Source of the DNA: Minisyncoccota bacterium | Lineage (GTDB): Bacteria > Patescibacteriota > Minisyncoccia > UBA6257 > 02-FULL-45-10c | Length of the DNA: 64,000 nucleotides | Reading direction: 5' to 3' | Assembly (NCBI GenBank): GCA_036517155.1 | Contig: DATDXY010000019.1 | Location: forward strand, 9,913-73,912 | Made by a program: the position numbers and the translations under genes | Shown here: positions 5,862 through 52,721 of the stretch, piece by piece | Numbering within the stretch: the first letter of the stretch is position 1 | Layout: each line of letters starts with the position of its first letter | Notes under the pieces: model-generated | Databases searched by the model: none | Told to the model about the DNA's origin: nothing | What the model saw: the letters and a program-made list of their open reading frames with translations, nothing else

Positions 5862-5879
5862 AAATTATTGGAAAATTAA

Positions 5880-7106: not shown

Positions 7107-7273
7107 ATATAATAGTAGTTAGTGATTAGTCACTAGTGGTTAATTTTAATAATTTTTTTAAAAAAGCCCGCTGGGAGCGGACTTCAATCAATAAAAGCAG
7201 TATATCTGAAATTCCGGAAAAAGTCAAAGGGGCTCTACGTACACGCAGAACCCCTTTATTTTGACCAAAAGAT

Positions 7274-7750
7274 CTAATTATTGAATATCACCGGAGACAC
7301 ATATGGCCCCAGAATTATCCTGGTCTTGGATTTTCCCTTCTTCAGGATCAAGTATTCAGCCGGTCCACGCACCCGTACATTAAAATGAATAGAGGAAGAT
7401 CCTCGTAATTGGACCTCTCCTCCGCTAAGTTCGGCAATGCGATTTTTCAGTTCCTTCAACCAGACTTTATCCACTGCATAACCGTCAAACACTGCCCAGA
7501 ATGCATCATAAACCGCTTCTTCGGAAAAAGCAGAAAAGTCCGGTGTCTCTAGCTTACTCAAAGCGACTGCGGTATATTCGTAGATTTTCCTCCGATCATT
7601 CAGCAGTTTCGTTTCAGTCATAGTAGCGGTGTCTGATTCATAAGAGTTATAGGATTCTCTCTGAAACTTCAGAATGGGCGTCCAATTCTCCGCGTAAGCA
7701 ATTTGCATTGCTCCGCACATCACGGCAACGGCCAACATTTGTCTCAACAT
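7274..7750 (-). CDS. Hypothetical secreted protein
   Basis: 158 aa with a signal peptide (MLRQMLAVAVMCGAMQIAYA); no recognisable domain. Confidence 0.5.
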   Translation of the reverse strand: MLRQMLAVAVMCGAMQIAYAENWTPILKFQRESYNSYESDTATMTETKLLNDRRKIYEYTAVALSKLETPDFSAFSEEAVYDAFWAVFDGYAVDKVWLKELKNRIAELSGGEVQLRGSSSIHFNVRVRGPAEYLILKKGKSKTRIILGPYVSPVIFNN

Positions 7751-37802: not shown

Positions 37803-39404
37803 ATGAAGAAATTTCTTTTAATACTTATTTCTACAACTTTTTTGGCTAATATTTTCCTATCTTTGCCAGCTACAACTCACGCAGTTCCAGTTGAGGTTAT
37901 TAATCCAGTCTTCATTGCTAATCCAATTCTTTTTACCTCAGATGTGCCGAACAAAGTAGTGGCAGCGGCTCATACAAAATTAACAGCAGCTGGGTGGATT
38001 GCCGAAGCAACTCGCTGGGGGAAAGATCTTGCCAGAGAAATTGCTTTAACCATCAAAAAAAGCGCGTTTGCTTTGTTCAAAAAACGAGTGTTGGATCGAA
38101 TGGTAGATGATTTGGTGCAATGGATTACATATGGTGATGATAAAAAACCAAAGTGGGCGGAAGGTGATTTTGAGGAACTGACTCAAAACGCCGCGCAAGC
38201 GGCCATAGGGGATTTAGTGCTTAAAACCAGCTTAGCTCAAATTTGTAGCCCGTTTAAAGCGAAACTTCTTCTTACCTTAACCCCACCGGGACCGGTCAGC
38301 GATCAAGTAAAATGCACCTTAGATCAAATTACTGGTAATATCAATTCTTTTCTCGCAGATTTCAAAAATGGCGGCTGGCTTGCCTATAACGAACTTTGGC
38401 AGCCAAGAAATAATTATTATGCAACCGTGTTGATGACGCTGGATTCCGCTGGGCTCGCAGGCGCAAGAGCGGCGGCCGCCCAACAAAGCGAAGTAATCGC
38501 GGGCCAGGGTTTTCTTGCCACCACAAGATGTGACTATTATCCGGATCCCGATGGCATCTACAAAGACAAATTTGGCCACGCTCTTACCGACCAGGATCTC
38601 ACCGCAATGAACAATGGCGAATGGGTAAACACTTATAGCCGAAAGTGTTACAAAACTACGCCCGGATCAACGATTGCTGGTCTTGCGCTGAAAGCCAATA
38701 CAACATACATTGATTGGCTGATTAACGCAGAAGATATTGACGCATATGTTACGGCCGTTGCTGATGCTCTCATTAATCGAGTGATTAAAGATGGTGTGAA
38801 TGGACTTAAAGGACTTTCTAATAAGAAACCAGATGCGCCGCAACAAAGCCCCGGCAGACCATGCGATGGTCTAACCGGGGCAGCGCTCGCATCGTGCCTT
38901 GGTTACGACAATATTTCCCAGATTAATTACATCAACAATCGTTCTGCCTTAGCATCGCAATCTAATGATTCTATCGAACCCCGCCAAAAAGCTTCTACAT
39001 TGCTCACTCAGGTTATTAGCAAACAAAGCACTCTGGTAACTGCTTTAGAAAATTTGTACACCTGCCAACAATCTACGGGTTTCACTCAAGAAGCAAAAGA
39101 TACTCAATTAGAACTTGATGTGGAAAAAGATAAATTGGAAAGCTTACAAACTCAGTTGGAAGATAATCAATCCGTGATTGATAATTTAGAACAATCAAAA
39201 ATAAATCTGGAAAATACCTCGCAAGAAGATGGCAATTCGCTTATTGTACAAACTGATTATCTTCAATCGGTTGGCGATCCACTGACCGCCAATCAAGTTT
39301 TGGATGACGCGCAAGCAGAATTTGACGGCCTGATCGATTTAGAAACAAAAATTACTTCTGTGCAGGCGCAAAATACCTGCCAACCGACAAAGCCAACTCT
39401 ATAA
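37803..39404 (+). CDS. Hypothetical secreted protein with C-terminal coiled coil
   Basis: 533 aa with a signal peptide; the C-terminal ~100 aa are Q/E/L-rich heptad-like. Confidence 0.45.
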   Translation: MKKFLLILISTTFLANIFLSLPATTHAVPVEVINPVFIANPILFTSDVPNKVVAAAHTKLTAAGWIAEATRWGKDLAREIALTIKKSAFALFKKRVLDRMVDDLVQWITYGDDKKPKWAEGDFEELTQNAAQAAIGDLVLKTSLAQICSPFKAKLLLTLTPPGPVSDQVKCTLDQITGNINSFLADFKNGGWLAYNELWQPRNNYYATVLMTLDSAGLAGARAAAAQQSEVIAGQGFLATTRCDYYPDPDGIYKDKFGHALTDQDLTAMNNGEWVNTYSRKCYKTTPGSTIAGLALKANTTYIDWLINAEDIDAYVTAVADALINRVIKDGVNGLKGLSNKKPDAPQQSPGRPCDGLTGAALASCLGYDNISQINYINNRSALASQSNDSIEPRQKASTLLTQVISKQSTLVTALENLYTCQQSTGFTQEAKDTQLELDVEKDKLESLQTQLEDNQSVIDNLEQSKINLENTSQEDGNSLIVQTDYLQSVGDPLTANQVLDDAQAEFDGLIDLETKITSVQAQNTCQPTKPTL

Positions 39405-39407
39405 ACC

Positions 39408-41330
39408 ATGAAACGTTTTCTCAAAATAATCGGCATCCTGGCAATCACACTTTTGATTATTTTGCCTTTAGCGCCCGCTGCTCGCGCGGAAGTAACTTGG
39501 GTTGAGGGTATTGGCATTTCTGTTTTCGCCAAAGGATTAACCACTCTTACTTACTTAATCGGTTATGCTGGTGGCTTACTTGTCCAACTTGCTGCGCAAA
39601 TGGTTAATTGGTCTTTGAATTTAAACAGCACCATTCTTTCCAGCCGACTGGTGCAGGTTGGGTGGCTTATCACCCGCGATCTTGCCAATCTTGGCTTTGT
39701 GCTGGCAATTATTTTAATCTCCTTTTTTACTATTTTCCGGTTCAATAATTACGACACAAAGAATATGTTGGTAAAATTGGTTATTTCTGCCTTACTAATC
39801 AATTTCAGTTTGGTTATTGCCGGTTTATTCATTGATTTCTCTGGAATTCTGACTAACTTTTTTGTCTCTAAAGCTACCGGCGGCGATCCCGCAAAAATGG
39901 CAGAAAATTTAGCCGGCGCATTTCAAGTGCAAAAATTACTCCAATCAACCGATAACTTGGACGTACTGACAAAAACCGCCGGTCAATTAAGCGATAGTTT
40001 CGCTGGTTGGCCAATTTTTTTCGCTTCGCTATTTTTCTCGGTTATTTTTTCTCTCATTGCCGCGATATCTATCGGCGCGGTTGGAGTAATGCTTTTTATT
40101 CGCTATATCTGGCTGGTGATGTTGGTTATTCTTATGCCAATCGCTTGGTTGCTTCGCGTTCTCCCAGAAACCGAGGGGAGGTGGAAAGAGTGGTGGAATG
40201 ATTTTTTACATTGGGTATTTTTTGCTCCAGCCGTCACTTTTTTTATCTATCTTGCTTTTGCGTTATTGGAAAATAAAGCAGAGGCGACAAAAACCTTGTC
40301 TTTGGAAGCGGCGAGCGGATTATTTAGCGTAGGCACCTTACAACAGGGCGCCGGGGAAATTATCGGTCAGATGATCGCCTTAACTGGAATTCTGATTGGG
40401 GGATTGAAAGTTGCCAGTAAAATGGGCGTTACCTTTGCCAATACCGCAATGGGGTTTGCGAATAAAGCAACCAGCGCAATTCTTGGGGGGACCATCCGAG
40501 GCACTGGGAAAATGGCTGGCGGAGCAGCTGGCGGAGCAGCGGGTTGGATCAAAGAAAAAGCGCTTACCGCCGGAGCTGGCGGCGGCAAAGAAAGTTATTT
40601 GCAAAGAGCTTCCGCGTGGCTTGCGAATAAACCAATCCCTGGAGCGCGCGCGTTAAGCACCGGCATCGCCAAAACCACCAAAGCAACACTTCAAGATGTG
40701 GAAAAATATCAAAAAGATAATATTGCCGATTTAACAAATGACGCTTTAATAGCAATGGCAAAAAATCCTTTAAATACCAGTACAGCGAATGCGGCAATTG
40801 CCCGGGAACTGGCTACGCGTCGAGACGCAACTGGCGTACCGATCGTTAATAAAGAAAAAGGCGCTTTCAAAGATGACGATCGCTTGTTAAGTCTTATGCG
40901 GGATGCGGATAGATTTGGATCCGCTGACGCGTTAATCAGCTCGCGTCCAGACCTTGGATTGCAATTGGGTAAAACAAAAGTAGAAATCTATGCCAAAGTT
41001 AAATCTGAAGATCGAGATAAACTTGGAGCGAAATTCTTTTCTGACGAAGACGGTCAAAAACTCTTATTAAAAATTAAGGGTGAGGATTTGGGTAACTTCG
41101 CCAAGAAATGGAGCGGTTCTGATCAAGAAGAGTTTATAGAATCTCTGCACCAAGCAATTACTAAAATCACTGACATCAATAGCAATGACGCAAAACAATT
41201 CCGAGCCATTGCCAGCCAAATTCGCCGCAGTCCAGCCTGGCCGGTAAAAATAGATCTTCAGAAAATTACTAATCTCTATACACCAGAACAATTAAAGAAA
41301 GTTCAGGGTGAAGAAGAAAGAAAATCATAA
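39408..41330 (+). CDS. VirB6/TrbL-like polytopic membrane protein with long hydrophilic C-terminal tail
   Basis: 640 aa; signal peptide plus about six TM helices in the first ~330 aa, Gly-rich linker, hydrophilic C-terminus. Topology and operon position match VirB6/TrbL/PrgH-type channel proteins. Confidence 0.45.
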   Translation: MKRFLKIIGILAITLLIILPLAPAARAEVTWVEGIGISVFAKGLTTLTYLIGYAGGLLVQLAAQMVNWSLNLNSTILSSRLVQVGWLITRDLANLGFVLAIILISFFTIFRFNNYDTKNMLVKLVISALLINFSLVIAGLFIDFSGILTNFFVSKATGGDPAKMAENLAGAFQVQKLLQSTDNLDVLTKTAGQLSDSFAGWPIFFASLFFSVIFSLIAAISIGAVGVMLFIRYIWLVMLVILMPIAWLLRVLPETEGRWKEWWNDFLHWVFFAPAVTFFIYLAFALLENKAEATKTLSLEAASGLFSVGTLQQGAGEIIGQMIALTGILIGGLKVASKMGVTFANTAMGFANKATSAILGGTIRGTGKMAGGAAGGAAGWIKEKALTAGAGGGKESYLQRASAWLANKPIPGARALSTGIAKTTKATLQDVEKYQKDNIADLTNDALIAMAKNPLNTSTANAAIARELATRRDATGVPIVNKEKGAFKDDDRLLSLMRDADRFGSADALISSRPDLGLQLGKTKVEIYAKVKSEDRDKLGAKFFSDEDGQKLLLKIKGEDLGNFAKKWSGSDQEEFIESLHQAITKITDINSNDAKQFRAIASQIRRSPAWPVKIDLQKITNLYTPEQLKKVQGEEERKS

Positions 41331-41338
41331 AATATTTT

Positions 41339-42214
41339 ATGGAAATTTCTAACTTACAATCTATCAGCGCCGCATTTCAGTCATTGCCAGAAAAAATTAA
41401 AGATTGGCTTGCGTCGGTTGATATTATTTTGCGCATCGAGCAAATATCAATTCGTTTCAATTTCAATAATTTGGAACAAGAAACTATTATTCCAAATTTA
41501 ATTTTACGGCTTTGTATTCAAAATTTAGACCCGCGAGATTTTATTAATACCCTAAGCATTCAACTTGGAGTTGATTTTGAAACCGCAAAAAAAATAACCC
41601 TAGATATTGAACGAGATATTCTTCGGGTTATTGAAATAGAACTCCGTCGCGATGTTGGAGTAGATATTAAGAATCTTTATTTTGGCAAACCCGGAGATCA
41701 AGCGCTGCGACCAATTAATGCGCCAACCCCATCTAGGACTCAAGAAACTCAGCCCCAATCAATACCAATAAAACCAATGGAAATCCCATCGGGGCCAAAC
41801 GTATCCTCTTGGTTAAAACCAAAAGATCAACCCGTTATCCAGACTCCTCCGGTAGAAAAACCCCAAACCGTTCAAGCGTCACTAACCAAGCAAAAGCCTT
41901 TAATTCCCAATGGCGGTCCAAAAATTGACTTGGAACACTTTGAAATTAAAGGGGAACCGTTTATTTTACACCAAGAACCGGGTACGACGCCGGCGACTGA
42001 AGCACCAAGGGTTTCTCCGGGATTTTCATTTAAAATCCCAACTTCATCTTTAACTTCTGAAAAACCCACTCCACAGAAATCAGTTTCGGTAAAATTAGAA
42101 ACTCCTCGGACGGTTAATTACAGCGATTTTCGAACCCCGTTGCCACCGCCTTCGCCCAACTCAGATACAAATCGTAAAAATACTGTTGATTTACGCAATA
42201 GCAATAATAAATAA
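41339..42214 (+). CDS. Hypothetical Pro-rich protein
   Basis: 291 aa; Pro-rich C-terminal half. Confidence 0.4.
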   Translation: MEISNLQSISAAFQSLPEKIKDWLASVDIILRIEQISIRFNFNNLEQETIIPNLILRLCIQNLDPRDFINTLSIQLGVDFETAKKITLDIERDILRVIEIELRRDVGVDIKNLYFGKPGDQALRPINAPTPSRTQETQPQSIPIKPMEIPSGPNVSSWLKPKDQPVIQTPPVEKPQTVQASLTKQKPLIPNGGPKIDLEHFEIKGEPFILHQEPGTTPATEAPRVSPGFSFKIPTSSLTSEKPTPQKSVSVKLETPRTVNYSDFRTPLPPPSPNSDTNRKNTVDLRNSNNK

Positions 42215-42222
42215 ATTATCAA

Positions 42223-42720
42223 ATGCAATTTCAAGTTCCGCAATTTATTGAAACCGAAGATAAAATTATCGGCCCACTCACACTAAAACAATTTCTCTAT
42301 CTCGCTCTGGCTGGAGGAGCGTGTTTTGGATTATATTTTATTTTAGACACCTGGCTGTGGCTTCTAGTTTCTATTTTTGTAGGAGCCATCGCCGCCGCCT
42401 TGGCATTCATCAAAGTCAATGGCCGCCCATTGCCGGTAATTGCTTTTGCCGCTTTTCAATATTATTGGAAGCCAAGATTTTATTTGTGGAAACACCAGGC
42501 AGAAACCGGACCAACAACTCATTTTCCGGAAGTGAAAAAACCGATTTTGGAACGATTGCGGGAACAATTACTGACTTCCAAAGCACCCATCCCAAAAAGA
42601 GAAAAAATCCTGAAACAACCGATTTTGGAAACCGCTGGCAAGCAAAGTAAAGAGCGATTTGAAATCCTTCGACGCATCACGGGAGAACGCGAGGTCTCTC
42701 GCCGCGTGGATTATCGTTAA
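42223..42720 (+). CDS. PrgI/VirB3-like small membrane protein
   Basis: 165 aa; MQFQVPQFIETEDKIIGPLTLKQFLYLALAGGACFGLYFIL followed by a second TM. It sits immediately upstream of VirB4, as in Gram-positive T4SS (PrgI-PrgJ). Confidence 0.45.
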   Translation: MQFQVPQFIETEDKIIGPLTLKQFLYLALAGGACFGLYFILDTWLWLLVSIFVGAIAAALAFIKVNGRPLPVIAFAAFQYYWKPRFYLWKHQAETGPTTHFPEVKKPILERLREQLLTSKAPIPKREKILKQPILETAGKQSKERFEILRRITGEREVSRRVDYR

Positions 42721-42743: not shown

Positions 42744-43397
42744 ATGCCAAACACACAAGAAGCATCGCCAATCCAACAATTTATTGAATTGGAGTCAATT
42801 GAAAATGGCGTTATCCATTTGAAAAATGGTGGATTAAGGAAAATTTTGCTGGTGTCCGGAATTAATTTTGACCTAAAATCGGAAGAGGAGCAGGGGATGA
42901 TTACTTACGCCTTTCAAAGTTTTCTCAATACCCTGGATTTTTCTCTCCAATTCTTTATCCATTCTCGAAAGCTCAATATTGACGATTATTTGGTGAAATT
43001 GGAAGATCGAGAAAAACAAGAACCCAGTGAATTGCTCAAAAATCAAATTTCCGAATATCGGGAATTTATCCGCGCGTTTGTCAGTCAGAACGCGATTATG
43101 GCAAAAACATTTTTCGTGATTGTTCCTTATAATCCATTGCGAATTCCCAAAGCCGGTACCGCCTTCACGGAAAAATTGACTCGATTATTCAGCAAAAGCA
43201 CCCCCAGCGAACAACCCCAAACTAGCGAACAAGAACAAATGGAACAACTGAATCTTCGCATAGATCAGGCAATCGCGGGCTTGAACCAAATTGGGCTTCG
43301 GGCCGTGCCATTAGATGATGATGAACTTTCGGAGCTGTTTTATAACCTCTATAATCCCGCGTCAGTCGAGCAAAAGAAAATTGACACGTCTGAATAA
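42744..43397 (+). CDS. VirB4/TrsE-family N-terminal domain, separated from the ATPase domain by an in-frame TAA
   Basis: 217 aa; IHLKNGGLRKILLVSGINFDLKSEEEQGMITYAFQSFLNTLDF matches the conserved N-terminal region of Gram-positive VirB4/TrsE proteins. It is in the same frame as 43401-45110. Confidence 0.55.
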   Translation: MPNTQEASPIQQFIELESIENGVIHLKNGGLRKILLVSGINFDLKSEEEQGMITYAFQSFLNTLDFSLQFFIHSRKLNIDDYLVKLEDREKQEPSELLKNQISEYREFIRAFVSQNAIMAKTFFVIVPYNPLRIPKAGTAFTEKLTRLFSKSTPSEQPQTSEQEQMEQLNLRIDQAIAGLNQIGLRAVPLDDDELSELFYNLYNPASVEQKKIDTSE

Positions 43398-43400
43398 TTT

Positions 43401-45110
43401 ATGGAATCAGAAAAAAAACTTATCAATATCATTGCCCCATCCGGCCTGCAAGTAGAGCCACAGTACTTGAAATTGGGGAATAAACTCGCAAAGACTTTGT
43501 TCGTATTTTCCTACCCCCGTTATCTGGCCACGGGTTGGTTTTCCGGAATTATTAATATGCCGGAATTATTGGATATCTCCATTTTCATCCACCCAGTAGA
43601 TACGGTACTCGCGCTTCGCACCCTCCGCCGAAAAGCTACTCAAGTGGAATCCCAACTGATTGAACGCCAACAAAAGGGGTTGGTTCGGGATCCGATTCTA
43701 GAAACCGCTTTTCAAGACGTGGAATCTCTGCGCGATTCCCTGCAGCAATCCCGCGAACAATTATTCAATGTTGGTGTATACATCACTTTTTACGCCGACA
43801 CGGTGGAACAATTAAATAAATTGGAAAATAAAATTTCCGCGTTTTTAGAAAGTCGTTTGATTTACGCTAAACCGGCGTTATTTCAACAATTAGAAGGGTT
43901 CGCATCCACTCTTCCGCTTAATCAAGACAAATTAGAAGTCCATTCGCCGCTTAATTCCAGTCCACTTTCCTCAATTTTCCCATTCACCTCAGCAAACCTT
44001 ACTTCGGATGAGGGTATTCTTTATGGCATTAATCGGCACAATAATACTTTGGTTATTTTTGATCGATTTTCACTGGAAAATGCTAATTTAGTTATTTTCG
44101 CCAAGTCTGGCAGTGGCAAATCTTATGCGACCAAACTGGAAGCGCTGCGATTATTGATGATGGGCGTGGATGTAATTATTATTGACCCGGAAAATGAATA
44201 TGAAAACATGGCAAAGGCAGTTGGTGGTAGTTATTTCCGCATCTCTCTCGCCTCCGACCACCATATCAATCCCTTTGAACTTCCTATTGTCGCGTCCGGC
44301 GACGATCCGAGTGATTCGTTGAAATCCCACATCGTGAACTTATCCGGATTATTGAAAATAATGCTCGGCAAGCTTACTCCGGAAGAAGATGCGATCTTGG
44401 ATCGCGCTTTGGCGGAAACTTACGCTTCCCACGATATTGTCGCGGGAAAAGATTTTTCCCAAGCGGTGCCGCCACTGTTGGAAGATTTAGAAAAAATTCT
44501 CCTGAATATGGAGGGTGGTCGGGGATTAAGCCAACGTTTATATAAATTCACTCAGGGCAGTTATGCCGGTTTTACCAATCAACCAACTAATGTCGATATT
44601 AAAAATCGGCTGATTGTCTTTTCTATCCGTGACCTCGAAGAGGAATTACGGCCAATCGCAATGTATATTGTGTTGAATTTTATTTGGAATCTTATCCGCG
44701 CCAATCTTAAAAAACGGGTGCTGATTGTGGATGAGGCGTGGGTGTTGATGAAATATGAAGACGGGGCTTCGTTTATGTTTGGTTTGGTAAAACGTTGCCG
44801 AAAATATTTCTTAGGAGTCACCACAATTACCCAAGACGTGGAAGATTTCTTGAAATCTCCGTATGGCCGGCCGATTATTACCAATTCTTCGTTACAACTC
44901 CTTCTTAAACAATCACCAGCGATGATTGATGTAGTAATTAAGTCCTTCAATCTTACCGACGGAGAAAAAAGCCTTTTATTGGAAGCGGGGGTTGGCGAAG
45001 GATTATTTTTTGCCGGTTTAAATCATGTCGCGATTCAGGTGGTCGCTTCGTATATTGAAGATAAAATTGTGACTACCAAACCAGAACAAATTCTGGAACA
45101 ACATTCATGA
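43401..45110 (+). CDS. VirB4/TrsE-family type IV secretion ATPase (C-terminal ATPase domain)
   Basis: 569 aa; Walker A FAKSGSGKSYAT, Walker B LIVDEAW, VirB4-type C-terminal motifs. Confidence 0.85.
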   Translation: MESEKKLINIIAPSGLQVEPQYLKLGNKLAKTLFVFSYPRYLATGWFSGIINMPELLDISIFIHPVDTVLALRTLRRKATQVESQLIERQQKGLVRDPILETAFQDVESLRDSLQQSREQLFNVGVYITFYADTVEQLNKLENKISAFLESRLIYAKPALFQQLEGFASTLPLNQDKLEVHSPLNSSPLSSIFPFTSANLTSDEGILYGINRHNNTLVIFDRFSLENANLVIFAKSGSGKSYATKLEALRLLMMGVDVIIIDPENEYENMAKAVGGSYFRISLASDHHINPFELPIVASGDDPSDSLKSHIVNLSGLLKIMLGKLTPEEDAILDRALAETYASHDIVAGKDFSQAVPPLLEDLEKILLNMEGGRGLSQRLYKFTQGSYAGFTNQPTNVDIKNRLIVFSIRDLEEELRPIAMYIVLNFIWNLIRANLKKRVLIVDEAWVLMKYEDGASFMFGLVKRCRKYFLGVTTITQDVEDFLKSPYGRPIITNSSLQLLLKQSPAMIDVVIKSFNLTDGEKSLLLEAGVGEGLFFAGLNHVAIQVVASYIEDKIVTTKPEQILEQHS

Positions 45111-45493
45111 ACCAGAGATCAAAAATAGATATGGTGGACGGATTTATTATGCTCGCTATGGCCGGTATTGCTGACGGGACCGAATTTCTAATGAATTATG
45201 TTGCCGCTATTCCAGTAATAGGATTGGGTGGACCATTAATCGCATCGCTGATTAGTTTTTTGGTATCGGCGATTTTACTAGCTTGGTTTATAATAAAAGG
45301 AATACCGTTGGGTTATCTTTTATCCGGCAGCGCGGTAGATATGATGCCGTTGGTCAATATGCTTCCAGCAAAAACCGCCGCGGTGATTGCGACAATTTTA
45401 AAAGACCGGGGAGCTGCCAATATAAAAACAACATCCCCAGAAACCAAAGAAGAAAAACCAAAACAAGAAGAAGAATTAAAAGAAGCAGTATAA
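45107..45493 (+). CDS. Hypothetical two-TM membrane protein
   Basis: 128 aa; overlaps the VirB4 stop by 4 nt; two TM helices then a K/E-rich tail. Confidence 0.4.
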   Translation: MNQRSKIDMVDGFIMLAMAGIADGTEFLMNYVAAIPVIGLGGPLIASLISFLVSAILLAWFIIKGIPLGYLLSGSAVDMMPLVNMLPAKTAAVIATILKDRGAANIKTTSPETKEEKPKQEEELKEAV

Positions 45494-45494
45494 T

Positions 45495-46169
45495 ATGCAC
45501 CGTTTAATATTTTCTATCATCTTTGTCGCCAGCATTTTAATTGCCGTTACTTCTTCCGCCCAAACCGCTCCGGAATTTATCACTTCTTGGAGAGCGATTA
45601 ATTATGTCCCAGCCACATACCTAGGCAAGATTTTCCCGACTAAGGGAAGTATTATCATTGTTGGTTTTGATCTCTTGGATAAAAATCAATTTGTGAACCT
45701 CTCTAAAGCAGAAATCCAATGGGATATTGATAACACGGTTCTCCAAACGGGGATTGGGATTCAACAAGTTCAATTTCAAAGTAATACGAATACCAATCAG
45801 CACGTCGTTCGCATAACAATTCGTAATTTTGGAACTTCCGAACTCAACTACACCTTTACTATCCCAATCAAAAAACCGCTTTTAATCATTGATGCTCCGG
45901 TGCCAAATCGACAATTGAGCCTTGGTCCCACCTTGTTCCGGGCTTTGCCATATTTTTTCAACACAAATAATCTTAGTACTGTGCGGTTTCAATGGTCCCG
46001 TAATGGACAAATCGTCACCGGCGATGCCAACACCCCAAACGCTTTAACACTTGAGATTTCTTCCGAAGGAAATCCGGTGGATAGCGATATCACTCTTTCC
46101 GCGTCCGCGCAAAATATTTTAAACCCGCTGGAAAATGCAACACAATTACTTAATTTAAAAATACGCTAA
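45495..46169 (+). CDS. Hypothetical secreted protein
   Basis: 224 aa with a signal peptide (IIFVASILIAVTSSAQT). Confidence 0.4.
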   Translation: MHRLIFSIIFVASILIAVTSSAQTAPEFITSWRAINYVPATYLGKIFPTKGSIIIVGFDLLDKNQFVNLSKAEIQWDIDNTVLQTGIGIQQVQFQSNTNTNQHVVRITIRNFGTSELNYTFTIPIKKPLLIIDAPVPNRQLSLGPTLFRALPYFFNTNNLSTVRFQWSRNGQIVTGDANTPNALTLEISSEGNPVDSDITLSASAQNILNPLENATQLLNLKIR

Positions 46170-46172
46170 TTT

Positions 46173-47255
46173 ATGAAATATTTTATCACAAACTTTATTC
46201 TGATAATTTGCATACTTAGCTTTATACCCAAGACATTTGCCGAAGAAGCAGATGCACGTGGTCTTATTTGTCCATCAGGCAGCACGGGTTATTACAAACT
46301 TGTTATGAAAAATATTTCCGGAGTTACTGAAGAGGTTGCGAAAAAATCATTAAAAAACATCACTCTAGGAATATTGACTCTCGGTGGATATAATTTATAT
46401 TCTGCATTTAATTTTACATCAGAAACTGGGCAGTTTTATGATAGGTATCTTGAACGTTGCGCTTCTAATATTCTTAAAGATTGTCCCGCGGATAGAATTA
46501 CAGCCGATCCCAATAATACTAATCAAAAAATTTGTTTAGTGAATCCGATAAAACTTACTAATCCAAATCTATTAAAAAATAAGGAACCGATTCAGGCCTA
46601 TACTTCCCAAGTCGCTATTCCTTGCAAGGAAATTGCTGGGGGGAAGTGCCCCAATCAAGATACTGGTCCAGCGGCCTATATTGCCCGTCTTTATACTTTT
46701 GGATTAATGATTGCCGGCGCAGCCGCGTTTGGAATGATTATTTTTGGAGGATTTAAATATGTTTTAGCCGCCGGGAATCTCGCGTCTACCCAAGAAGCCA
46801 AGGAAACCATTACTGGGGCAATTTGGGGATTGTTACTGCTTTTAATGGCTTATGTGATTCTCTACACGATTAATCCTCGATTAGTTAATGTTCAAGATCC
46901 AAACGCGCCGACTCTTTTTAGAGACTTTTCTCAAGAAGCTAGCATTGACCAACCCAACCAATTACTTCCAGCTATTGAGCCGGGCATCAAAGATCCGAAT
47001 TGCCGCATTTCTATTCAAGTGGATTTAACCACGCCAACCATTGGCGACCCCAACAATCCTAATGGTAAACCAATTTTGGAAAGTGGTAGAAAATCAGTGT
47101 GCGCGCCCTGGGGTTGTAATACGAATTCGTTCCGTACTATCGAAGGAATTTGTGAGTGTAATTTAGGATTTGCTCCTGACGCCGATGGAATTTGCGCAAA
47201 AACACTTGGCCCAGAACAAAATAGGGGATTTTTTCCTCAACCAAATACACAATAA
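46173..47255 (+). CDS. Cys-rich secreted protein with embedded pilin-like two-TM module
   Basis: 360 aa; signal peptide, Cys-rich ectodomain, internal hairpin of two TM helices (YTFGLMIAGAAAFGMIIFGGFKYVLAAGN…ITGAIWGLLLLLMAYVILYTI) resembling the VirB2/TrbC core. Confidence 0.4.
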   Translation: MKYFITNFILIICILSFIPKTFAEEADARGLICPSGSTGYYKLVMKNISGVTEEVAKKSLKNITLGILTLGGYNLYSAFNFTSETGQFYDRYLERCASNILKDCPADRITADPNNTNQKICLVNPIKLTNPNLLKNKEPIQAYTSQVAIPCKEIAGGKCPNQDTGPAAYIARLYTFGLMIAGAAAFGMIIFGGFKYVLAAGNLASTQEAKETITGAIWGLLLLLMAYVILYTINPRLVNVQDPNAPTLFRDFSQEASIDQPNQLLPAIEPGIKDPNCRISIQVDLTTPTIGDPNNPNGKPILESGRKSVCAPWGCNTNSFRTIEGICECNLGFAPDADGICAKTLGPEQNRGFFPQPNTQ

Positions 47256-47258
47256 AAT

Positions 47259-48332
47259 ATGAATAAAACAATTAAAATAGTTCTCATTTTAGCCGTAATT
47301 CTTCTTACTTTTGTGGGCGGATATTTTATTCTAAAAAATCTCGTGGAAAATAACGTTACTGATTTAGGACAAATTAAAACCGACAATGAAACGGGTCAAC
47401 CCATACTCTCTTCTTCAGCTCTTCAACAATTAATCTTTACCCCGATAGTTGATTATTGGATCCAATCGGATAATGACATTTACGCGTTAACCGAAACTGG
47501 GCAAGTAATTACGGTCAAAAATGGAGAAGTGGAACTGATAAATTCCCAAACTTTTTCTAAAATTCACTCTCTCGCGCCATCGTTTGACGGTGAAAAAATC
47601 ATTTTGGAATTCAATTTCCCCGATGCTCCTCGTTTCAATATTTTTAACACCACAGACGGAACCTGGCAGGGACTTCCCAGCGCGACTCGCGCTGCCGCCT
47701 GGTCACCAAATTCTTTGGAAATCGCATACTTGGAAGGCAATGCTTTAAAAATTCTGGAACCGAAAAAACAAACCACTCGAACGATAATTTCTATTTTTCA
47801 GCCGGACGCGCAGCTGAAATGGGTTGAGCCAAATCAAATCCTGATTAATTCTTACCCAAGCGCCTTACTCACCACTCGTATTTGGTCATTAAATCTCAAA
47901 ACAAAGTCTATCACTCCGTTTTTGAATGAAACCGGTGCGGTGTTGACTTGGTCTAATGATAAAGAACTTGCCTTAAAACTTCGCAGTTCTGCGCAGGGTT
48001 CGGTTTTAAGCCTTTTCCACAAGACTGGCACTCAAATTGATTTGAATATTCTGACTCTTCCGGAAAAATGCGAATTAACTAACAACCAAATTTATTGCGG
48101 CGTTCCAAAAATTATCCGAGAAGGCCTTACTTTATTAGATGACTATTACCAGCGCAATGTGTATTTTGACGACAATCTTTATTTAATTGATTTAACTAAT
48201 GGAACTAATTCTTTACTTTTGGAAAATCCTGGATTTCCAATTGATGTAAGCCATCCCAAACTTACGTCAGACAATCAACTGCTTTTTATCAACCGCTACG
48301 ATAATAAATTGTATACTTTAAAGTTAAAATAA
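47259..48332 (+). CDS. Hypothetical membrane-anchored protein (possible beta-propeller)
   Basis: 357 aa; N-terminal TM; last gene of the operon. Confidence 0.4.
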   Translation: MNKTIKIVLILAVILLTFVGGYFILKNLVENNVTDLGQIKTDNETGQPILSSSALQQLIFTPIVDYWIQSDNDIYALTETGQVITVKNGEVELINSQTFSKIHSLAPSFDGEKIILEFNFPDAPRFNIFNTTDGTWQGLPSATRAAAWSPNSLEIAYLEGNALKILEPKKQTTRTIISIFQPDAQLKWVEPNQILINSYPSALLTTRIWSLNLKTKSITPFLNETGAVLTWSNDKELALKLRSSAQGSVLSLFHKTGTQIDLNILTLPEKCELTNNQIYCGVPKIIREGLTLLDDYYQRNVYFDDNLYLIDLTNGTNSLLLENPGFPIDVSHPKLTSDNQLLFINRYDNKLYTLKLK

Positions 48333-48335
48333 AAA

Positions 48336-48362
48336 CATCCGCCAGTTGGCGGATGTTTTTAT
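48336..48362. terminator. Bidirectional rho-independent terminator
   Basis: CATCCGCCAGTTGGCGGATG hairpin flanked by A5 and T5; lies between the convergent operon end and jag. Confidence 0.7.
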
Positions 48363-48781
48363 AATGGCTTGATAATTACGCATCGCTCTTTTCCTTCTCC
48401 GACGCTTTCCGTTTTCACGTCTGGCCGGGAAGCGAGTTCCATATGCACCAGACGCCGTTCATAGCCGTTCATCGCCGGCAAAGCTACTTCCTTTTTTTGG
48501 ACCAATACTTTCCGGGCGGCGGCCTTGGCCAGTTCCGTAATTAAATGTTCCCGCTCTCGGCGATAATTATTGATATCCACAATAAAAGTATTCAAACTGT
48601 GACGTTTGGCCACCAAATTCAAAACAATTTCCAGTTCCGAAATTAATTTCGGCAAGGCCTCTTTGGATTCCATATGGGAATCAAAAATAGTAATCCGGCG
48701 GCCCTCAATATCCACATCCACCGAAACATCTTTCAGGCCGGTAGTAACTATTTGTTGAATTGTTTCTTTAAAATCCGCCAT
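48359..48781 (-). CDS. jag: Jag/KhpB-like R3H domain RNA-binding protein
   Basis: 140 aa; C-terminal R3H motif (GYERRLVHMELA); position downstream of yidC is conserved. Confidence 0.8.
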   Translation of the reverse strand: MADFKETIQQIVTTGLKDVSVDVDIEGRRITIFDSHMESKEALPKLISELEIVLNLVAKRHSLNTFIVDINNYRREREHLITELAKAAARKVLVQKKEVALPAMNGYERRLVHMELASRPDVKTESVGEGKERCVIIKPL

Positions 48782-48785
48782 AGAA

Positions 48786-49430
48786 TCAAATTTTTACGGT
48801 TTTATTGATATAGATTTGTTGAATGATCGCGAATACAGAGGTTGCCAACCAGTACAATCCGACCGCGGATGGTAAATTGGTTAATATTACCAACGTCAGC
48901 ACCGGACCGATAAAAACCATCTGCCGTCCCATTCGTTCTGGCGCGGACAATTCTTTTCCCTCTTGAATTTTTGGCAAGGACAATTTCCCCTGAAAATACT
49001 GGGCAATTGCTGCTAAACCAACCATTACTATACTCTTATCTTGGAGGTTTATCAAATTCAAAAAAACCGGGTGAATACTAGAAAAATCACCCATAAACAC
49101 CTTATACAAGGCGATTAAAATCGGCAACTGAATGAACAAAATAAGAAAATTGGAAAACGGATTTACTTTATGGGTTTTGTACAACTCCATCATTGCCTGC
49201 GCTTGTTTTTCTTTGTTGTCTTTGTGATCGTGCTGAATCTGTTGAAGGAGTGGTTGAATTTTTTGCAGCAATAATTGGTTCTTGGCGCTCTTATAAAATA
49301 ACGGCAACAACACCAATCGAACTAAGAAAGTTAGGATAATAATTGCTATCCCCAGATCGTGAAATGCGGCATTTTCATATAAAAACATCAGGGTCTTCAA
49401 AAGCGGATTATAAAGAAAGGTGTTAAACAT
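48786..49430 (-). CDS. yidC: Membrane protein insertase YidC (short form)
   Basis: 214 aa; LGIAIIILTFLVRLVLLPL…QLPILIALYKV is typical of YidC/Oxa1 TM segments. Confidence 0.85.
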   Translation of the reverse strand: MFNTFLYNPLLKTLMFLYENAAFHDLGIAIIILTFLVRLVLLPLFYKSAKNQLLLQKIQPLLQQIQHDHKDNKEKQAQAMMELYKTHKVNPFSNFLILFIQLPILIALYKVFMGDFSSIHPVFLNLINLQDKSIVMVGLAAIAQYFQGKLSLPKIQEGKELSAPERMGRQMVFIGPVLTLVILTNLPSAVGLYWLATSVFAIIQQIYINKTVKI

Positions 49431-49755
49431 TTTTAAAACATTGTTCTAATTGTAGGATAATTTCTGCCTTTGGTACACGCTTAATGGCAGAACTAACAAT
49501 AATCAACACATCCATTGACGGAATCATCGTAATATAAGTTTGTAAGGCTTGAAATATACTTCGTTTAATCTGATTTCTTTCTACGGCTTTAGCGGCTACT
49601 TGCTTGCTGACAATTATACCAAAACGGCAGTGGGGGAGGGTAGAATTAAAAAATTTTAATAAAAAAATGTCGCTTTTTTTAGTAAAACGACTTTTTCTAC
49701 CAACTACCCCTTGAATGGGCAGGCGATATTTTTTTGGCAGCATACTACGCCGCAA
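49423..49755 (-). CDS. rnpA: Ribonuclease P protein component
   Basis: 110 aa; LPKKYRL…[24 protein letters not shown] is the RnpA signature; the start may be the Met at MLPKK. Confidence 0.85.
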
Positions 49756-49879
49756 GACGATTTCGCCCCTTTTGCCGGCGGCGCGACAAAACTCTTCGGC
49801 CGCTGGAAGTCCGGCTTCGCTTTAAAAAGCCATGAGTACGTGCCCGTTTTCTCTTTTTGGGCTGATAAGTTCTGGACAT
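49745..49879 (-). CDS. rpmH: 50S ribosomal protein L34
   Basis: 44 aa from the ATG at 49877-49879: [44 protein letters not shown]. Confidence 0.85.
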
Positions 49880-49949
49880 AGCCTTGAGCTTATCATACGC
49901 CTTTACAAACATCAACCATCTCATCACAATTAGGAGATATACTCCGGTC

Positions 49950-49980
49950 AAAATGAGTTTTCCACAGATTTTCCACACCT
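49950..49980. promoter_or_regulatory. Two direct DnaA-box-like 9-mers (TTTTCCACA) upstream of dnaA
   Basis: Boxes at 49958-49966 and 49969-49977 (consensus TTWTNCACA), spaced 11 bp apart. Confidence 0.5.
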
Positions 49981-50035
49981 TATTAAGTTTTTCGGCTTTT
50001 GACGCTGGCGTTAGTAAAAACTAGAATTACCTTAC

Positions 50036-51412
50036 ATGGAAGAACTACAACAACTTTGGCAAACCGCGCTTGGAGAAATTGAATTACAAATTTCTCGGCC
50101 AAATTTTGTGACGTGGTTAAAAAATAGCCGGCTTTTAGACAAACAAGAAGGAGTTGCGGTTGTAAGCCTGCCCAATAATTTCGCTAAAGAGTGGGTGGAG
50201 AATAAATATCATAAAATTATTCTGGCCGCGCTTCGAAATATTGATGAGACCACGAAAAAGGTGGAATACACCATCGAGAGTAAATCTGAACAATTATTAA
50301 AATCCCGGCAACGGAAACTGCATCGCGCCGAAGAACCAGTATATGTGGAGCAATCGCCGCTTTTGGAATTGAAGATTGATTCTGAAACCAATCTCAACCC
50401 CCGTTATTCATTAAGTTCTTTTATTGTTGGTTCTTCGAATGAGTTGGCGTACGCCGCCGCTCAAGGAGTCATAAACGAAGTGGGGAAAAAATATAACCCG
50501 TTATTTTTTTACGGTGGGGTAGGATTGGGAAAAACCCACCTTATTCAAGGAATTGGCAATGAAATTAAAAAAGTGTATGAAAATAAAATTAAAGTTAGAT
50601 ATGTTCCTTCAGAAATGTTTTTAAATGAAGTGGTAGCTGGGATTCGTAATAAACGGATGGAGGATATTAAAGAAAAATATCGTTTTGTGGATGTTTTAAT
50701 TATAGATGATATCCAATTTATTGGTGGAAAAGAAAAAACAGAAGAAGAATTTTTCCATACTTTTAATGCGCTGTATGAAAATAATAAGCAAATTATCATC
50801 TCCTCAGATCGTTCCCCTCGATTCTTACCCACCCTACAAGAACGCTTAAGCTCTCGATTTGAGGGGGGGATGGTCTGTGAATTAAACCAACCCGATTTTG
50901 AATTGCGGGTAGCGGTATTAAAAACTAAACTCCAAGATAAAAACAACTCTCTGCCGGACGCGATTATTAACTTAATTGCCGCTAAAGCCCAAAGGAATTT
51001 TCGGGAATTAGATGGGATATTAAATCGAATTCTTTTTTATCAAAACACTAAACACTCTGCCATTTCTGAAAAAGCCGCGGAAGAACTCATTAACGAAACC
51101 ATCCAACAACCAATCAAAAACATAAACCCTAATAACGTTATTAAGGCAGTAGCGGATTATTTTAACGCCCCCATCACCGATCTCACGGGTAGGTCTCGCA
51201 AGAAAACCATGGTAGAACCGCGCCAAATTGCTATGTTTCTTCTGCGTGATATGTTAAATATGTCCTACCCATCTATTGGGGAAAAATTGGGGAAAAGAGA
51301 TCATACCACCGCCATTTATTCTTACGTCAAACTTTCCAAAGATATCGCGAAAAACCAAAATTTGAGTCAAAAAATTATTACCATTAAAGAAATGGTGGAT
51401 AAAATCGTATGA
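50036..51412 (+). CDS. dnaA: Chromosomal replication initiator protein DnaA
   Basis: 458 aa; AAA+ Walker A GGVGLGKTHL, box VII, C-terminal DNA-binding domain. Confidence 0.95.
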   Translation: MEELQQLWQTALGEIELQISRPNFVTWLKNSRLLDKQEGVAVVSLPNNFAKEWVENKYHKIILAALRNIDETTKKVEYTIESKSEQLLKSRQRKLHRAEEPVYVEQSPLLELKIDSETNLNPRYSLSSFIVGSSNELAYAAAQGVINEVGKKYNPLFFYGGVGLGKTHLIQGIGNEIKKVYENKIKVRYVPSEMFLNEVVAGIRNKRMEDIKEKYRFVDVLIIDDIQFIGGKEKTEEEFFHTFNALYENNKQIIISSDRSPRFLPTLQERLSSRFEGGMVCELNQPDFELRVAVLKTKLQDKNNSLPDAIINLIAAKAQRNFRELDGILNRILFYQNTKHSAISEKAAEELINETIQQPIKNINPNNVIKAVADYFNAPITDLTGRSRKKTMVEPRQIAMFLLRDMLNMSYPSIGEKLGKRDHTTAIYSYVKLSKDIAKNQNLSQKIITIKEMVDKIV

Positions 51413-51614
51413 GAACTTATTTGAATAATAACCTGTGGATATATTCTTATTACTTTGTTGGTAAATTAACTAATAAACAACTAATCAAAAATCTTTTAAC
51501 ACCTAACCACAACTTTATTCAGTATGCTTGTGGAGAAAAATACTTGAATTTTATTAGAGATTTCCGATTTATCAACAGATTCTTAATTACCAATAACTAC
51601 TAGATATAAATATT
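51413..51614. other. oriC-like AT-rich dnaA-dnaN spacer with DnaA boxes
   Basis: TGTGGATAT (51435-51443), TGTGGAGAA (51529-51537), TTATCAACA (51569-51577); very AT-rich, consistent with a DNA-unwinding element. Confidence 0.5.
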
Positions 51615-52721
51615 ATGAAATTAATAGTATTACATACTAATTTAAAAAATGGGTTGGGGATTGTGTCTAGGGCTTTAGGGGAGGGTTCAAATCTTCCGAT
51701 TTTAAAAAACGTTTCTATTAAAACATTGAATAATAAGATTCGATTAGTAACTACTAACCTAGAATTAGCCGCTACTCATTATGTATCTGGAAAAATTATA
51801 GAAGAAGGTTCGATTACTGTGCCGTTTTCAATACTATACGGGATTGTTAGTAACTGCGACAGTGAACGAATCACTTTGGAGGTAAAAAATAATACGCTTT
51901 ATTTTCAAACCGATAATTATAATGCCCAAATTCAAGGCCTACCTGAAGAAGAGTTTCCAATTATTCCTAAAATTACCAACGATAAGAATTATATAATTAT
52001 TAATGCCGAATTATTAAAATCCTCACTCTTAAAAGTTGTTTCCGCAGTTCAAATTTCCGAAATTCGACCAGAAATTAGCGGAGTATTATTTAATTTCCAA
52101 TTAACTCATTTCAAGGTGGTTGGAACGGACAGTTTTCGGCTCGCGGAAAAAACTATTTCCGAAAAAGATTTTAAAAGTAATTTCCAAAGAGGATTTCAAG
52201 TAATTATTCCAATTAAAACCATTCAAGAAGTTATTCGGGTAATGAATAATGGTGATGTGGGAGTGTATATTGATCCAAACCAGATTTTATTTAAAACCGA
52301 AGAAGTAGAAATTATTTCCCGGCTTATTGACGGCGCGTATCCGGAATACGAAGCGATTATCCCAAAGGAATTCAGCATAGAATGCGATGTTTCTCAAGAA
52401 TCTTTTATGAATGCGGTTAAATTAGTGAGTAACGTCACTGGAAAAACCAATGATATTATCTTGAAAACTAAAGAAGGAAAAAAAGTATTGGAAGTGTATT
52501 CTGTAAATCAATTTGTCGGCGAAAATCGTTATTTGGTTCCAGCAAAGATTAAAGGCAAGGAATTTGAAGTAGCGTTTAATTGGCGCTATTTAATAGATGG
52601 ATTAAAAAACTTTGAAAGCGAAGAAATATATATAGGCGTAAATCAAGAAAACCGCCCAGTTTTACTCAGAACACCCAACGATTTTAGTTATTTCTATCTT
52701 TTAATGCCGATTAAGAACTAG
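51615..52721 (+). CDS. dnaN: DNA polymerase III beta sliding clamp
   Basis: 368 aa; three-domain clamp architecture immediately after dnaA. Confidence 0.9.
   Translation: MKLIVLHTNLKNGLGIVSRALGEGSNLPILKNVSIKTLNNKIRLVTTNLELAATHYVSGKIIEEGSITVPFSILYGIVSNCDSERITLEVKNNTLYFQTDNYNAQIQGLPEEEFPIIPKITNDKNYIIINAELLKSSLLKVVSAVQISEIRPEISGVLFNFQLTHFKVVGTDSFRLAEKTISEKDFKSNFQRGFQVIIPIKTIQEVIRVMNNGDVGVYIDPNQILFKTEEVEIISRLIDGAYPEYEAIIPKEFSIECDVSQESFMNAVKLVSNVTGKTNDIILKTKEGKKVLEVYSVNQFVGENRYLVPAKIKGKEFEVAFNWRYLIDGLKNFESEEIYIGVNQENRPVLLRTPNDFSYFYLLMPIKN

What the first reader, a model, noticed from the sequence alone, without database searches (positions are those of the whole stretch)
42744..45110. VirB4-family ATPase interrupted by a single in-frame TAA between the N-terminal and ATPase domains
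ORF 42744-43397 (VirB4 N-terminal signature …LRKILLVSGINFDLKSEEEQ…) and ORF 43401-45110 (Walker A/B ATPase domain) are in the same reading frame. They are separated only by TAA at 43395-43397 plus one codon (TTT) before the next ATG. Their combined length of about 787 aa equals a normal single-chain VirB4/TrsE. This is one of three things: a nonsense mutation that makes the T4SS a pseudogene, a functional split into two polypeptides (the second ORF has its own ATG right after the stop), or a sequencing or assembly error. Which one decides whether the whole T4SS-like operon is functional.
Basis: seen in the sequence. Interest (0 to 1): 0.6.

Follow-up and report, generated by a model that had tools for sequence, protein, structure and literature searches.

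The report
Naturally two-gene VirB4 (TrsD + ATPase)
The "stop codon inside VirB4" is real, but it is the normal, conserved and already published arrangement in Patescibacteria: the first ~215 residues of the secretion ATPase VirB4 are made as a separate small protein (TrsD-like) from a gene just upstream of the ATPase gene, so nothing is broken.

Summary
Observation confirmed. ORF 42744-43397 (217 aa) and ORF 43401-45110 (569 aa) are in one frame, separated by TAA + TTT.

It is not a nonsense mutation or an assembly error:
- The identical junction occurs in six independently assembled samples.
- Of 79 scorable species-representative Paceibacteria loci, 69 are split in the same variable linker. 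These use all three relative frames, all three stop codons, and gaps from -25 to +436 nt. Ten are fused (768-802 aa).
- Stand-alone N-ORFs are under strong purifying selection (pN/pS 0.09-0.34).
- "TAA + 3 nt + ATG, same frame" is the junction at 4 of 12 gene boundaries in this run of genes, so the shared frame is coincidence.

The N-ORF is the detached N-terminal module of VirB4. It matches the N-terminal part of VirB4 profiles, and its model's best 13 solved-structure matches are all R388 TrwK/VirB4. It is a remote relative of TrsD/TraD of Gram-positive plasmids, which show the same PrgI-TrsD-ATPase order.

The cut lies inside the classical VirB4 N-terminal domain, not at its border with the ATPase domain.

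Quiñonero-Coronel et al. 2025 (PMC12102498) already describe TrsD next to VirB4 as widespread in Patescibacteria. They cite a transposon study listing it as essential in one cultivated species. Verdict: ordinary and already known.

The parts
42223..42720 (+). PrgI-family (VirB3-like) small membrane protein gene, immediately upstream of the N-ORF
   Evidence: Pfam PF12666 PrgI, 45.8 bits against a cutoff of 27. The same PrgI -> TrsD-like -> ATPase order is seen in the Geobacillus plasmid locus L088 and in identical contigs L001-L006.
42744..43397 (+). N-ORF, 217 aa: stand-alone TrsD-like protein, the detached N-terminal module of VirB4 (precomputed Pfam PF26593 'TraC-like')
   Evidence: NCBIfam hits fall on the N-terminal part of VirB4 models and on TrsD/TraD NF041427. 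All 120 best homologues are 205-255 aa, and 149 of 150 best representative clusters are not full-length VirB4. The AF2 model has pLDDT 79, and its top 13 PDB hits are all TrwK/VirB4. pN/pS is 0.09-0.34.
43395..43403 (+). Junction TAA-TTT-ATG: stop of the N-ORF, a 3-nt spacer, and the start of the ATPase gene. No Shine-Dalgarno-like sequence lies upstream, so the layout fits translational coupling (inferred).
   Evidence: The junction is identical in six independent assemblies. It lies in a non-conserved linker between the conserved motifs LYNPxxxEKK and IAPxxxE..YLKxG.
43401..45110 (+). C-ORF, 569 aa: VirB4-type T4SS ATPase lacking the first ~200 residues of a single-chain VirB4. Walker A is at nt 44100-44123 and Walker B at nt 44718-44735.
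   Evidence: NF045971 CD1110-family VirB4, 374 bits against a cutoff of 325, covering model positions 183-732 of 752. Pfam P-loop_TraG, AAA_10 and DUF87. PDB 4AG5 VirB4 C-terminal domain at E=2e-41, and TrwK 285-741. About 95 of the 120 best homologues are 566-576 aa and 25 are fused at 780-793 aa.
39408..41330 (+). 640-aa membrane protein, VirB6/TrbL-like candidate of the same gene cluster
   Evidence: Precomputed Pfam PF19590 TrbL_3 on the identical gene in L001. There is a weak NF046089 CD3337/EF1877 mobilome membrane protein hit. The local Pfam scan found nothing.
37803..39404 (+). 533-aa ORF of unknown function at the head of the tightly packed cluster. Its junction with the next gene is also TAA+3 nt+ATG in frame.
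   Evidence: No family hit.
41339..42214 (+). 291-aa ORF of unknown function between the VirB6-like and PrgI genes
   Evidence: It is conserved in position in L001-L005.
45107..48332 (+). Four tightly packed downstream ORFs (128, 224, 360 and 357 aa), possibly a VirB2-like pilin or accessory set
   Evidence: ATGA overlap with the ATPase gene, then gaps of 1, 3 and 3 nt. ORF 46173-47255 gives a sub-threshold PF18895 T4SS_pilin hit, 24.6 bits against 26.6. Pilin clusters in Patescibacteria T4SS loci are described in PMC12857230.

Best explanation
This is an intact, chromosomal Patescibacteria (Candidatus Paceibacterota) type IV secretion gene cluster in which VirB4 is encoded by two genes. The 217-aa N-ORF is a TrsD-like protein corresponding to the first ~200 residues of a single-chain VirB4. 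The 569-aa C-ORF carries the rest of the N-terminal domain plus the RecA-like ATPase domain. Shown: the split is ancient, widespread and under purifying selection. It lies in a variable, probably unstructured linker. Fused and split versions alternate among close relatives. The in-frame geometry is one of three equally acceptable frames and matches the usual tight gene junction of this operon. Inferred: both chains are translated from one mRNA. The ATG lies 3 nt after the stop with no Shine-Dalgarno sequence, which suggests termination-reinitiation coupling and roughly 1:1 output. The two chains would then re-associate non-covalently into a VirB4-like unit. The TrsD-like piece would supply part of the surface that, in R388, is wrapped by VirB3 (here the PrgI protein encoded just upstream) and mediates VirB4-VirB4 dimer contacts.
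For: - Junction geometry.
- Independent assemblies: the exact 217-aa protein and the identical TAA-TTT-ATG junction occur on contigs from six samples across ENA, Logan and JGI.
- Related loci: among 80 GTDB species-representative loci, 69 are split, 10 fused and 1 incomplete. Relative frames are +1:33, +2:23 and 0:13. Stops are TAA 50, TGA 12 and TAG 7. Gaps run from -25 to +436 nt, including ATGA overlaps.
- Linker: all junctions fall in the same non-conserved linker.
- Homologue lengths: all 120 best N-ORF homologues are 205-255 aa. Only 1 of the 150 best representative clusters at 50% identity is full length.
- Selection: stand-alone N-ORFs have pN 0.05-0.27 against saturated pS 0.52-0.82. 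32 columns are invariant across 68 sequences.
- Operon style: 4 of 12 junctions in this run of genes are TAA+3 nt+ATG in the same frame.
- Identity of the N-ORF: it hits the N-terminal part of VirB4 profiles and TrsD/TraD, and its fold matches TrwK/VirB4 only.
- Firmicute plasmids: they show the same TrsD -> DUF87 ATPase order, with PrgI upstream in one case.
- Literature: TrsD is the most abundant T4SS component in Patescibacteria. 1,664 homologues are associated with VirB4. One is listed as essential in Ca. Southlakia epibionticum, and clusters often lie near dnaA (PMC12102498). Here dnaA is about 1.7 kb downstream.
- VirB3 contact: VirB3 wraps the VirB4 N-terminal domain in R388 (PMC9259494).
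Against: There is no expression or protein data for this organism. Physical association of the two chains and translational coupling are inferred, not shown. The N-ORF scores far below the curated cutoff of the NCBIfam TrsD/TraD model (29.9 against 200 bits), so it is a remote relative, not a member of that subfamily as defined. The AF2 model of a fused relative is only moderate (pLDDT 67), and no inter-chain model was possible. [quoted passage not shown]
Confidence: 0.93

Rival explanations
1. A recent nonsense mutation in a single-chain virB4 has made the ATPase, and so the T4SS, a pseudogene.
For: The two ORFs share a frame and are separated by only a stop and one codon. Fused single-chain relatives of 768-802 aa do exist in the same clade, with up to 81% identity to the C-ORF.
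Against: - The split is found in 69 of 79 related species, in all frames, with overlaps and with long spacers. It therefore long predates this genome.
- The window sits inside a clade of split forms.
- The second ORF has its own ATG exactly where orthologous ATPase genes start.
- Both halves are under strong purifying selection.
- Every neighbouring cluster gene is intact.
- The same in-frame junction type separates unrelated neighbouring genes.
Confidence: 0.02
2. The TAA is a sequencing or assembly error, and the real gene is continuous.
For: The window comes from a metagenome-assembled genome, and single-base errors occur. One related assembly (L002) does show an extra break inside the ATPase gene.
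Against: The identical 217-aa product and the identical junction string ACGTCTGAATAATTTATGGAA are present in six contigs from different samples and pipelines (ENA x3, Logan, JGI x2). 11 contigs in all carry the exact protein. Split orthologues are the rule.
Confidence: 0.01
3. Programmed readthrough or recoding of TAA yields a covalently fused 788-aa VirB4, alone or alongside the two separate chains.
For: The in-frame stop with a one-codon spacer would allow it. Fused forms are evidently functional in relatives.
Against: - TAA, TAG and TGA all serve as ordinary stops in the window, so nothing points to an altered code.
- In-frame junctions are not enriched among split orthologues: 13 of 69 against about 23 expected (my own comparison of the counts). 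Most in-frame junctions have longer spacers.
- Most orthologues are out of frame or overlapping, where readthrough cannot fuse the chains.
- No readthrough-promoting structure was looked for or seen.
Confidence: 0.03

Closest known systems
TrsD + VirB4 pair of the Patescibacteria T4SS (Quiñonero-Coronel et al. 2025, Microb Genom, PMC12102498; experimental system Ca. Southlakia epibionticum, Wang et al. 2023 as cited there)
   Same: A small TrsD-like gene lies directly upstream of a ~570-aa VirB4 ATPase gene. PrgI/VirB3 and VirB6-like genes are in the cluster. The location is chromosomal and close to dnaA. No relaxase or VirD4 was seen among the genes scanned.
   Different: Nothing substantive differs; this window is one more instance. 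Two points go a little beyond the paper's wording of 'remote homology' with 'no function assigned'. Fused TrsD-VirB4 genes are interleaved with split ones in Paceibacteria. The breakpoint always lies in one linker.
TrsD/TraD-TrsE/TraE of Gram-positive conjugative plasmids (pGO1/pSK41 type, MPF-FATA; NCBIfam NF041427)
   Same: A stand-alone ~200-aa protein is homologous to the VirB4 N-terminus and is encoded immediately before a DUF87/VirB4-like ATPase. This was seen directly in Peribacillus plasmid L087 (trsD 4926-5585, ATPase 5610-7583) and Geobacillus plasmid L088 (PrgI, a 318-aa protein, ATPase).
   Different: Identity is only 23-34%. The N-ORF scores 29.9 bits against the family cutoff of 200. 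The plasmid systems are conjugative, whereas the Patescibacteria system is chromosomal, typically lacks a relaxase, and is thought to be repurposed (PMC12102498).
Single-chain VirB4 (R388 TrwK, A. tumefaciens VirB4; TIGR00929)
   Same: The N-ORF plus C-ORF together cover the whole VirB4 architecture. The N-ORF maps to TIGR00929 positions 9-179 and the C-ORF to positions 304-726. The N-ORF model matches TrwK, and the C-ORF matches TrwK 285-741 and the 4AG5 C-terminal domain.
   Different: The protein is made as two polypeptides. The cut lies inside the classical N-terminal domain (TrwK residues 15-400), about 235 residues before Walker A.

Membership tests
VirB4-type T4SS ATPase (C-ORF) | Score above the curated cutoff of a VirB4 family model | tested here: met
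   NF045971 conju_CD1110 gives 374.4 bits against a cutoff of 325, but only over model positions 183-732 of 752. Other VirB4 models (TIGR00929, NF045975) match below their full-length cutoffs, as expected for a protein that lacks the N-terminal piece.
VirB4-type T4SS ATPase (C-ORF) | Walker A and Walker B NTP-binding motifs, and homology to a solved VirB4 C-terminal domain | tested here: met
   AKSGSGKS at C-ORF residues 234-241 and VLIVDE at 440-445. 4AG5 at E=2e-41 over residues 198-554.
VirB4-type T4SS ATPase (whole) | N-terminal domain and ATPase domain on a single polypeptide of about 800 aa | tested here: not met
   The protein is encoded as 217 + 569 aa. Single-chain relatives of 768-802 aa exist in 10 of 79 related loci.
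TrsD/TraD family (NCBIfam NF041427) (N-ORF) | Score at or above the curated cutoff (200 bits) | tested here: not met
   29.9 bits, E=4.5e-7, model positions 14-142 of 201. It is a remote homologue only.
TrsD-like proteins in the broad sense (N-ORF) | Stand-alone ~200-aa protein homologous to the VirB4 N-terminus, encoded directly upstream of the VirB4-like ATPase | tested here: met
   The same layout occurs in Firmicute plasmids. The precomputed PF26593 'TraC-like' annotation sits on the identical protein P0001. That model is absent from the local Pfam copy, so this was not reproduced.
Patescibacteria T4SS cluster (PMC12102498) | VirB4 with TrsD, PrgI/VirB3, VirB6-like and VirB2-like genes nearby | tested here: inconclusive
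   PrgI is met at 45.8 bits. The VirB6-like assignment rests only on a precomputed TrbL_3 annotation and a weak NF046089 hit. The pilin hit is sub-threshold at 24.6 against 26.6 bits.
Patescibacteria T4SS cluster (PMC12102498) | Chromosomal location near dnaA, with no relaxase in the cluster | tested here: met
   dnaA at 50036-51412, dnaN at 51615-52721, and yidC and jag between them and the cluster. No relaxase or VirD4 family was hit among the 30 window proteins scanned. Small ORFs were not all scanned.
Patescibacteria T4SS cluster (PMC12102498) | Required for epibiotic growth | not testable with these tools
   Known only for Ca. Southlakia epibionticum ML1, as cited in PMC12102498 and PMC12857230.
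Pseudogene (nonsense-disrupted virB4) | Disruption absent from orthologues, and relaxed selection on the fragments | tested here: not met
   69 of 79 orthologous loci are split. pN/pS is 0.09-0.34 for N-ORFs and 0.04-0.16 for C-ORFs.

The most novel reading that the evidence does not exclude
The in-frame TAA + one codon junction lets a small fraction of ribosomes read through. The cell would then make mostly two separate chains plus a minor covalently fused VirB4. A milder version holds that the repeated fission and fusion at one linker (at least 3 transitions among 73 loci) reflects selection for a detachable VirB3/PrgI-docking module, whose stoichiometry relative to the ATPase can differ from 1:1. 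This would echo the two non-equivalent VirB4 positions in the R388 inner-membrane complex.
Probability: 0.04. Interest if true: 0.4.

Novelty: already known. Interest (0 to 1): 0.12.

Why it matters
The main value is as a caution for annotation. In Patescibacteria and some Gram-positive plasmids, a short ORF followed by a "truncated" VirB4 should be called a TrsD-like gene plus a VirB4 ATPase gene, not a pseudogene, and the T4SS cluster should be scored as intact. This T4SS class is the only one reported as essential for its bearer's growth (PMC12857230). Miscalling it as broken would therefore distort inferences about lifestyle. One small added point: fused and split genes interleaved in one clade are direct evidence that TrsD is the detached N-terminal module of VirB4. 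This offers a natural experiment for studying what that module does.

Tried and rejected
- A sequence-profile search of the N-ORF family against PDB sequences found nothing meaningful: one spurious hit at E=0.48. Only the fold comparison recovered TrwK.
- I suspected that the longer TrsD-like representatives (300-443 aa) were PrgI/VirB3-TrsD fusions, by analogy with known VirB3-VirB4 fusions. Pfam found no PrgI domain in nine of them, so I dropped the idea.
- The first dN/dS script had an indexing bug that gave nonsense identities. I corrected it. Only p-distances are quoted because synonymous sites are saturated.
- The AF2 model of a fused relative (P0308) reached only pLDDT 67. It shows a coil with lower confidence across the junction region (about 202-216). 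It was not good enough, and no coordinates were available, to analyse inter-module contacts.
- The local Pfam copy lacks PF26593, so the N-ORF scan gave only a sub-threshold TraC_F_IV hit.
- TAA recoding was considered and rejected, because all three stop codons terminate conserved genes in the window.
- Minus-strand ORFs within the region (for example 44579-44950, 123 aa, TTG start) lie inside strongly conserved coding sequence. I treated them as spurious without a separate test.
Full report
**1. The observation**

- A 217-aa ORF (42744-43397, ATG start) ends with TAA at 43395-43397.
- TTT follows at 43398-43400, and ATG at 43401 opens a 569-aa ORF that ends at 45110.
- Both ORFs are in the same frame.
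- The C-ORF has Walker A (AKSGSGKS, nt 44100-44123) and Walker B (VLIVDE, nt 44718-44735).

**2. What the two ORFs are**

The C-ORF is a VirB4-type ATPase.
- It scores 374 bits on the NCBIfam CD1110-family VirB4 model (cutoff 325), but only over model positions 183-732 of 752.
- It matches Pfam P-loop_TraG, AAA_10 and DUF87.
- Residues 198-554 align to the crystallised VirB4 C-terminal domain 4AG5 (E=2e-41). Residues 84-533 align to R388 TrwK residues 285-741.

The N-ORF corresponds to the start of VirB4.
- It matches only the N-terminal part of VirB4 models: TIGR00929 positions 9-179 of 792, CD1110 2-121 of 752, and VirB4_plasma 106-233 of 894.
- It also matches the stand-alone TrsD/TraD family NF041427 (E=4.5e-7, far below that model's cutoff).
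- An AlphaFold2 model built from 68 homologues (pLDDT 79) finds R388 TrwK/VirB4 chains as its top 13 PDB matches (probability 1.00, TM on the query 0.43-0.53). Nothing else is significant.

TrwK's N-terminal domain is residues 15-400 (PMC9259494). The break at residue 217 therefore lies inside the classical N-terminal domain, about 235 residues before Walker A, and not at the domain border.

**3. Not an assembly error**

The exact 217-aa protein is recorded on 11 contigs. The six fetched come from different samples and pipelines (three ENA assemblies, one Logan, two JGI). All carry the identical junction string with TAA-TTT-ATG.

**4. Not a recent nonsense mutation**

Homologue lengths:
- All 120 best homologues of the N-ORF (57-100% identity) are 205-255 aa.
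- In an exhaustive search of 50%-identity cluster representatives, only one of the 150 best hits is a full-length ~800-aa protein.

Related loci. I fetched 80 loci from GTDB species-representative genomes (Paceibacteria: Harrison-, Jorgensen-, Colwell- and Liptonbacteria and others) and scored the junction.
- 69 are split, 10 are fused (single ORFs of 768-802 aa) and 1 is incomplete.
- Among the split loci, the ATPase gene is in relative frame +1 in 33, +2 in 23 and 0 in 13.
- The N-ORF ends with TAA in 50, TGA in 12 and TAG in 7.
- The spacer ranges from -25 nt (overlaps, including seven ATGA overlaps) to +436 nt.
- All junctions fall in the same poorly conserved linker between the conserved motifs LYNPxxxEKK and IAPxxxE..YLKxG. 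The window's in-frame geometry is one of three interchangeable states.

Selection. Stand-alone N-ORFs are under strong purifying selection. pN is 0.05-0.27 while pS is saturated at 0.52-0.82, giving pN/pS of 0.09-0.34. The C-ORFs give 0.04-0.16.

Operon style. Within the window, "TAA + 3 nt + ATG in the same frame" is also the junction at 39404/39408, 46169/46173 and 47255/47259. That makes 4 of 12 boundaries in this run of genes. The pattern is the local style of gene packing, not a mutational scar.

**5. Fused relatives**

The C-ORF search returned about 95 proteins of 566-576 aa and 25 of 780-793 aa among the best 120. The fused forms start at 81% identity and also carry the PF26593 domain. 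On an NJ tree of concatenated or fused sequences, the fused forms make one clade of eight plus two singletons (L013, L034) nested among split forms. Fitch parsimony needs 3 changes, and the window sits deep inside a split clade. The tree is midpoint-rooted and only indicative. Fission and re-fusion have happened repeatedly, which argues that the two forms are functionally equivalent.

**6. Context**

The window is chromosomal Patescibacteria DNA. NCBI names the identical protein as coming from a Candidatus Paceibacterota MAG.

The cluster runs PrgI/VirB3-like (42223-42720; PF12666, 45.8 bits) -> TrsD-like -> VirB4 ATPase. A VirB6/TrbL-like membrane protein lies upstream (39408-41330; precomputed TrbL_3). 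Four small ORFs lie downstream, one with a sub-threshold T4SS-pilin hit.

jag, yidC, dnaA (50036-51412) and dnaN follow within about 1.7 kb. The other large genes are housekeeping genes, and none of the proteins scanned is a relaxase or a VirD4.

**7. How it most likely works**

Shown: there are two conserved, selected genes that together cover a full VirB4, cut in a variable linker.

Inferred:
- The genes are co-transcribed, and translation is coupled. The ATG lies 3 nt after the stop, and no Shine-Dalgarno-like sequence is visible upstream.
- The two chains re-assemble non-covalently into a VirB4-like protomer.
- In R388, VirB3 wraps the VirB4 N-terminal domain, and that domain alone mediates the central-outside VirB4 dimer (PMC9259494). 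The TrsD-like chain, encoded right after PrgI/VirB3, is thus the likely membrane- and VirB3-proximal adaptor of the ATPase.

**8. Comparison with what is known**

Quiñonero-Coronel et al. 2025 (PMC12102498) report the following:
- They found 2,272 homologues, of which 1,664 are associated with VirB4.
- The TrsD homologue of Ca. Southlakia epibionticum is listed as essential.
- These clusters often lie near dnaA.

Firmicute plasmids show the same order. PGAP annotates trsD directly upstream of a DUF87 ATPase in a Peribacillus plasmid. A Geobacillus plasmid has PrgI, then a TrsD-like gene, then the ATPase.

The finding is therefore an instance of a published arrangement. The N-ORF fails the curated cutoff of the NCBIfam TrsD/TraD model. 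It should be called TrsD-like (PF26593 'TraC-like'), not a member of that subfamily.

**9. Verdict**

The 'functional split' alternative is right, and the pseudogene and error alternatives are refuted. The 'interrupted gene' framing and the stated domain boundary are inaccurate. The T4SS cluster looks intact. Novelty: already known. Interest is low. The only modest addition is the documented interleaving of fused and split forms at a single linker.

Noticed in passing
window 48359-52721: The T4SS-like cluster ends about 1.7 kb from the replication-origin gene set: jag/R3H (48359-48781, -), yidC (48786-49430, -), dnaA (50036-51412, +) and dnaN (51615-52721, +). This matches the published note that Patescibacteria T4SS clusters often sit near dnaA.
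   Followed up: partly
window 39404-39408, 46169-46173, 47255-47259: Three further gene boundaries in the same run of genes have the junction 'TAA + 3 nt + ATG in the same frame'. None of the 13 genes has an obvious Shine-Dalgarno sequence upstream. This suggests widespread termination-reinitiation coupling.
   Followed up: partly
L002 4658-6351 (ENA ERZ28563625, same organism as the window): In this one assembly the ATPase gene itself is called as two pieces (357 + 214 aa, overlapping). The window and L001 show it intact over its full length, and the other contigs end inside the gene. It is probably a frameshift variant or an assembly error in that sample.
   Followed up: no
L013 2974-5337, L034 2879-5251: Two single-ORF (fused) TrsD-VirB4 genes are nested within clades of split genes on the NJ tree. 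This implies secondary re-fusion by loss of the stop and spacer.
   Followed up: partly
proteins P0144, P0179, P0220, P0261, P0226, P0262: Some TrsD-like representatives are 300-443 aa, with N- or C-terminal extensions of 70-230 residues. The extensions have no Pfam match, and their nature is unknown.
   Followed up: partly
window 56697-58406: A PilB/GspE-type T2SSE ATPase (393 bits) lies about 8 kb downstream of the T4SS cluster. The following ORFs were not examined. It probably belongs to a type IV pilus locus, another system reported as important for the epibiotic lifestyle.
   Followed up: no
window 7835-10186 (-): A 783-aa ORF with no Pfam hit at E<=1e-4 sits among housekeeping genes.
   Followed up: no
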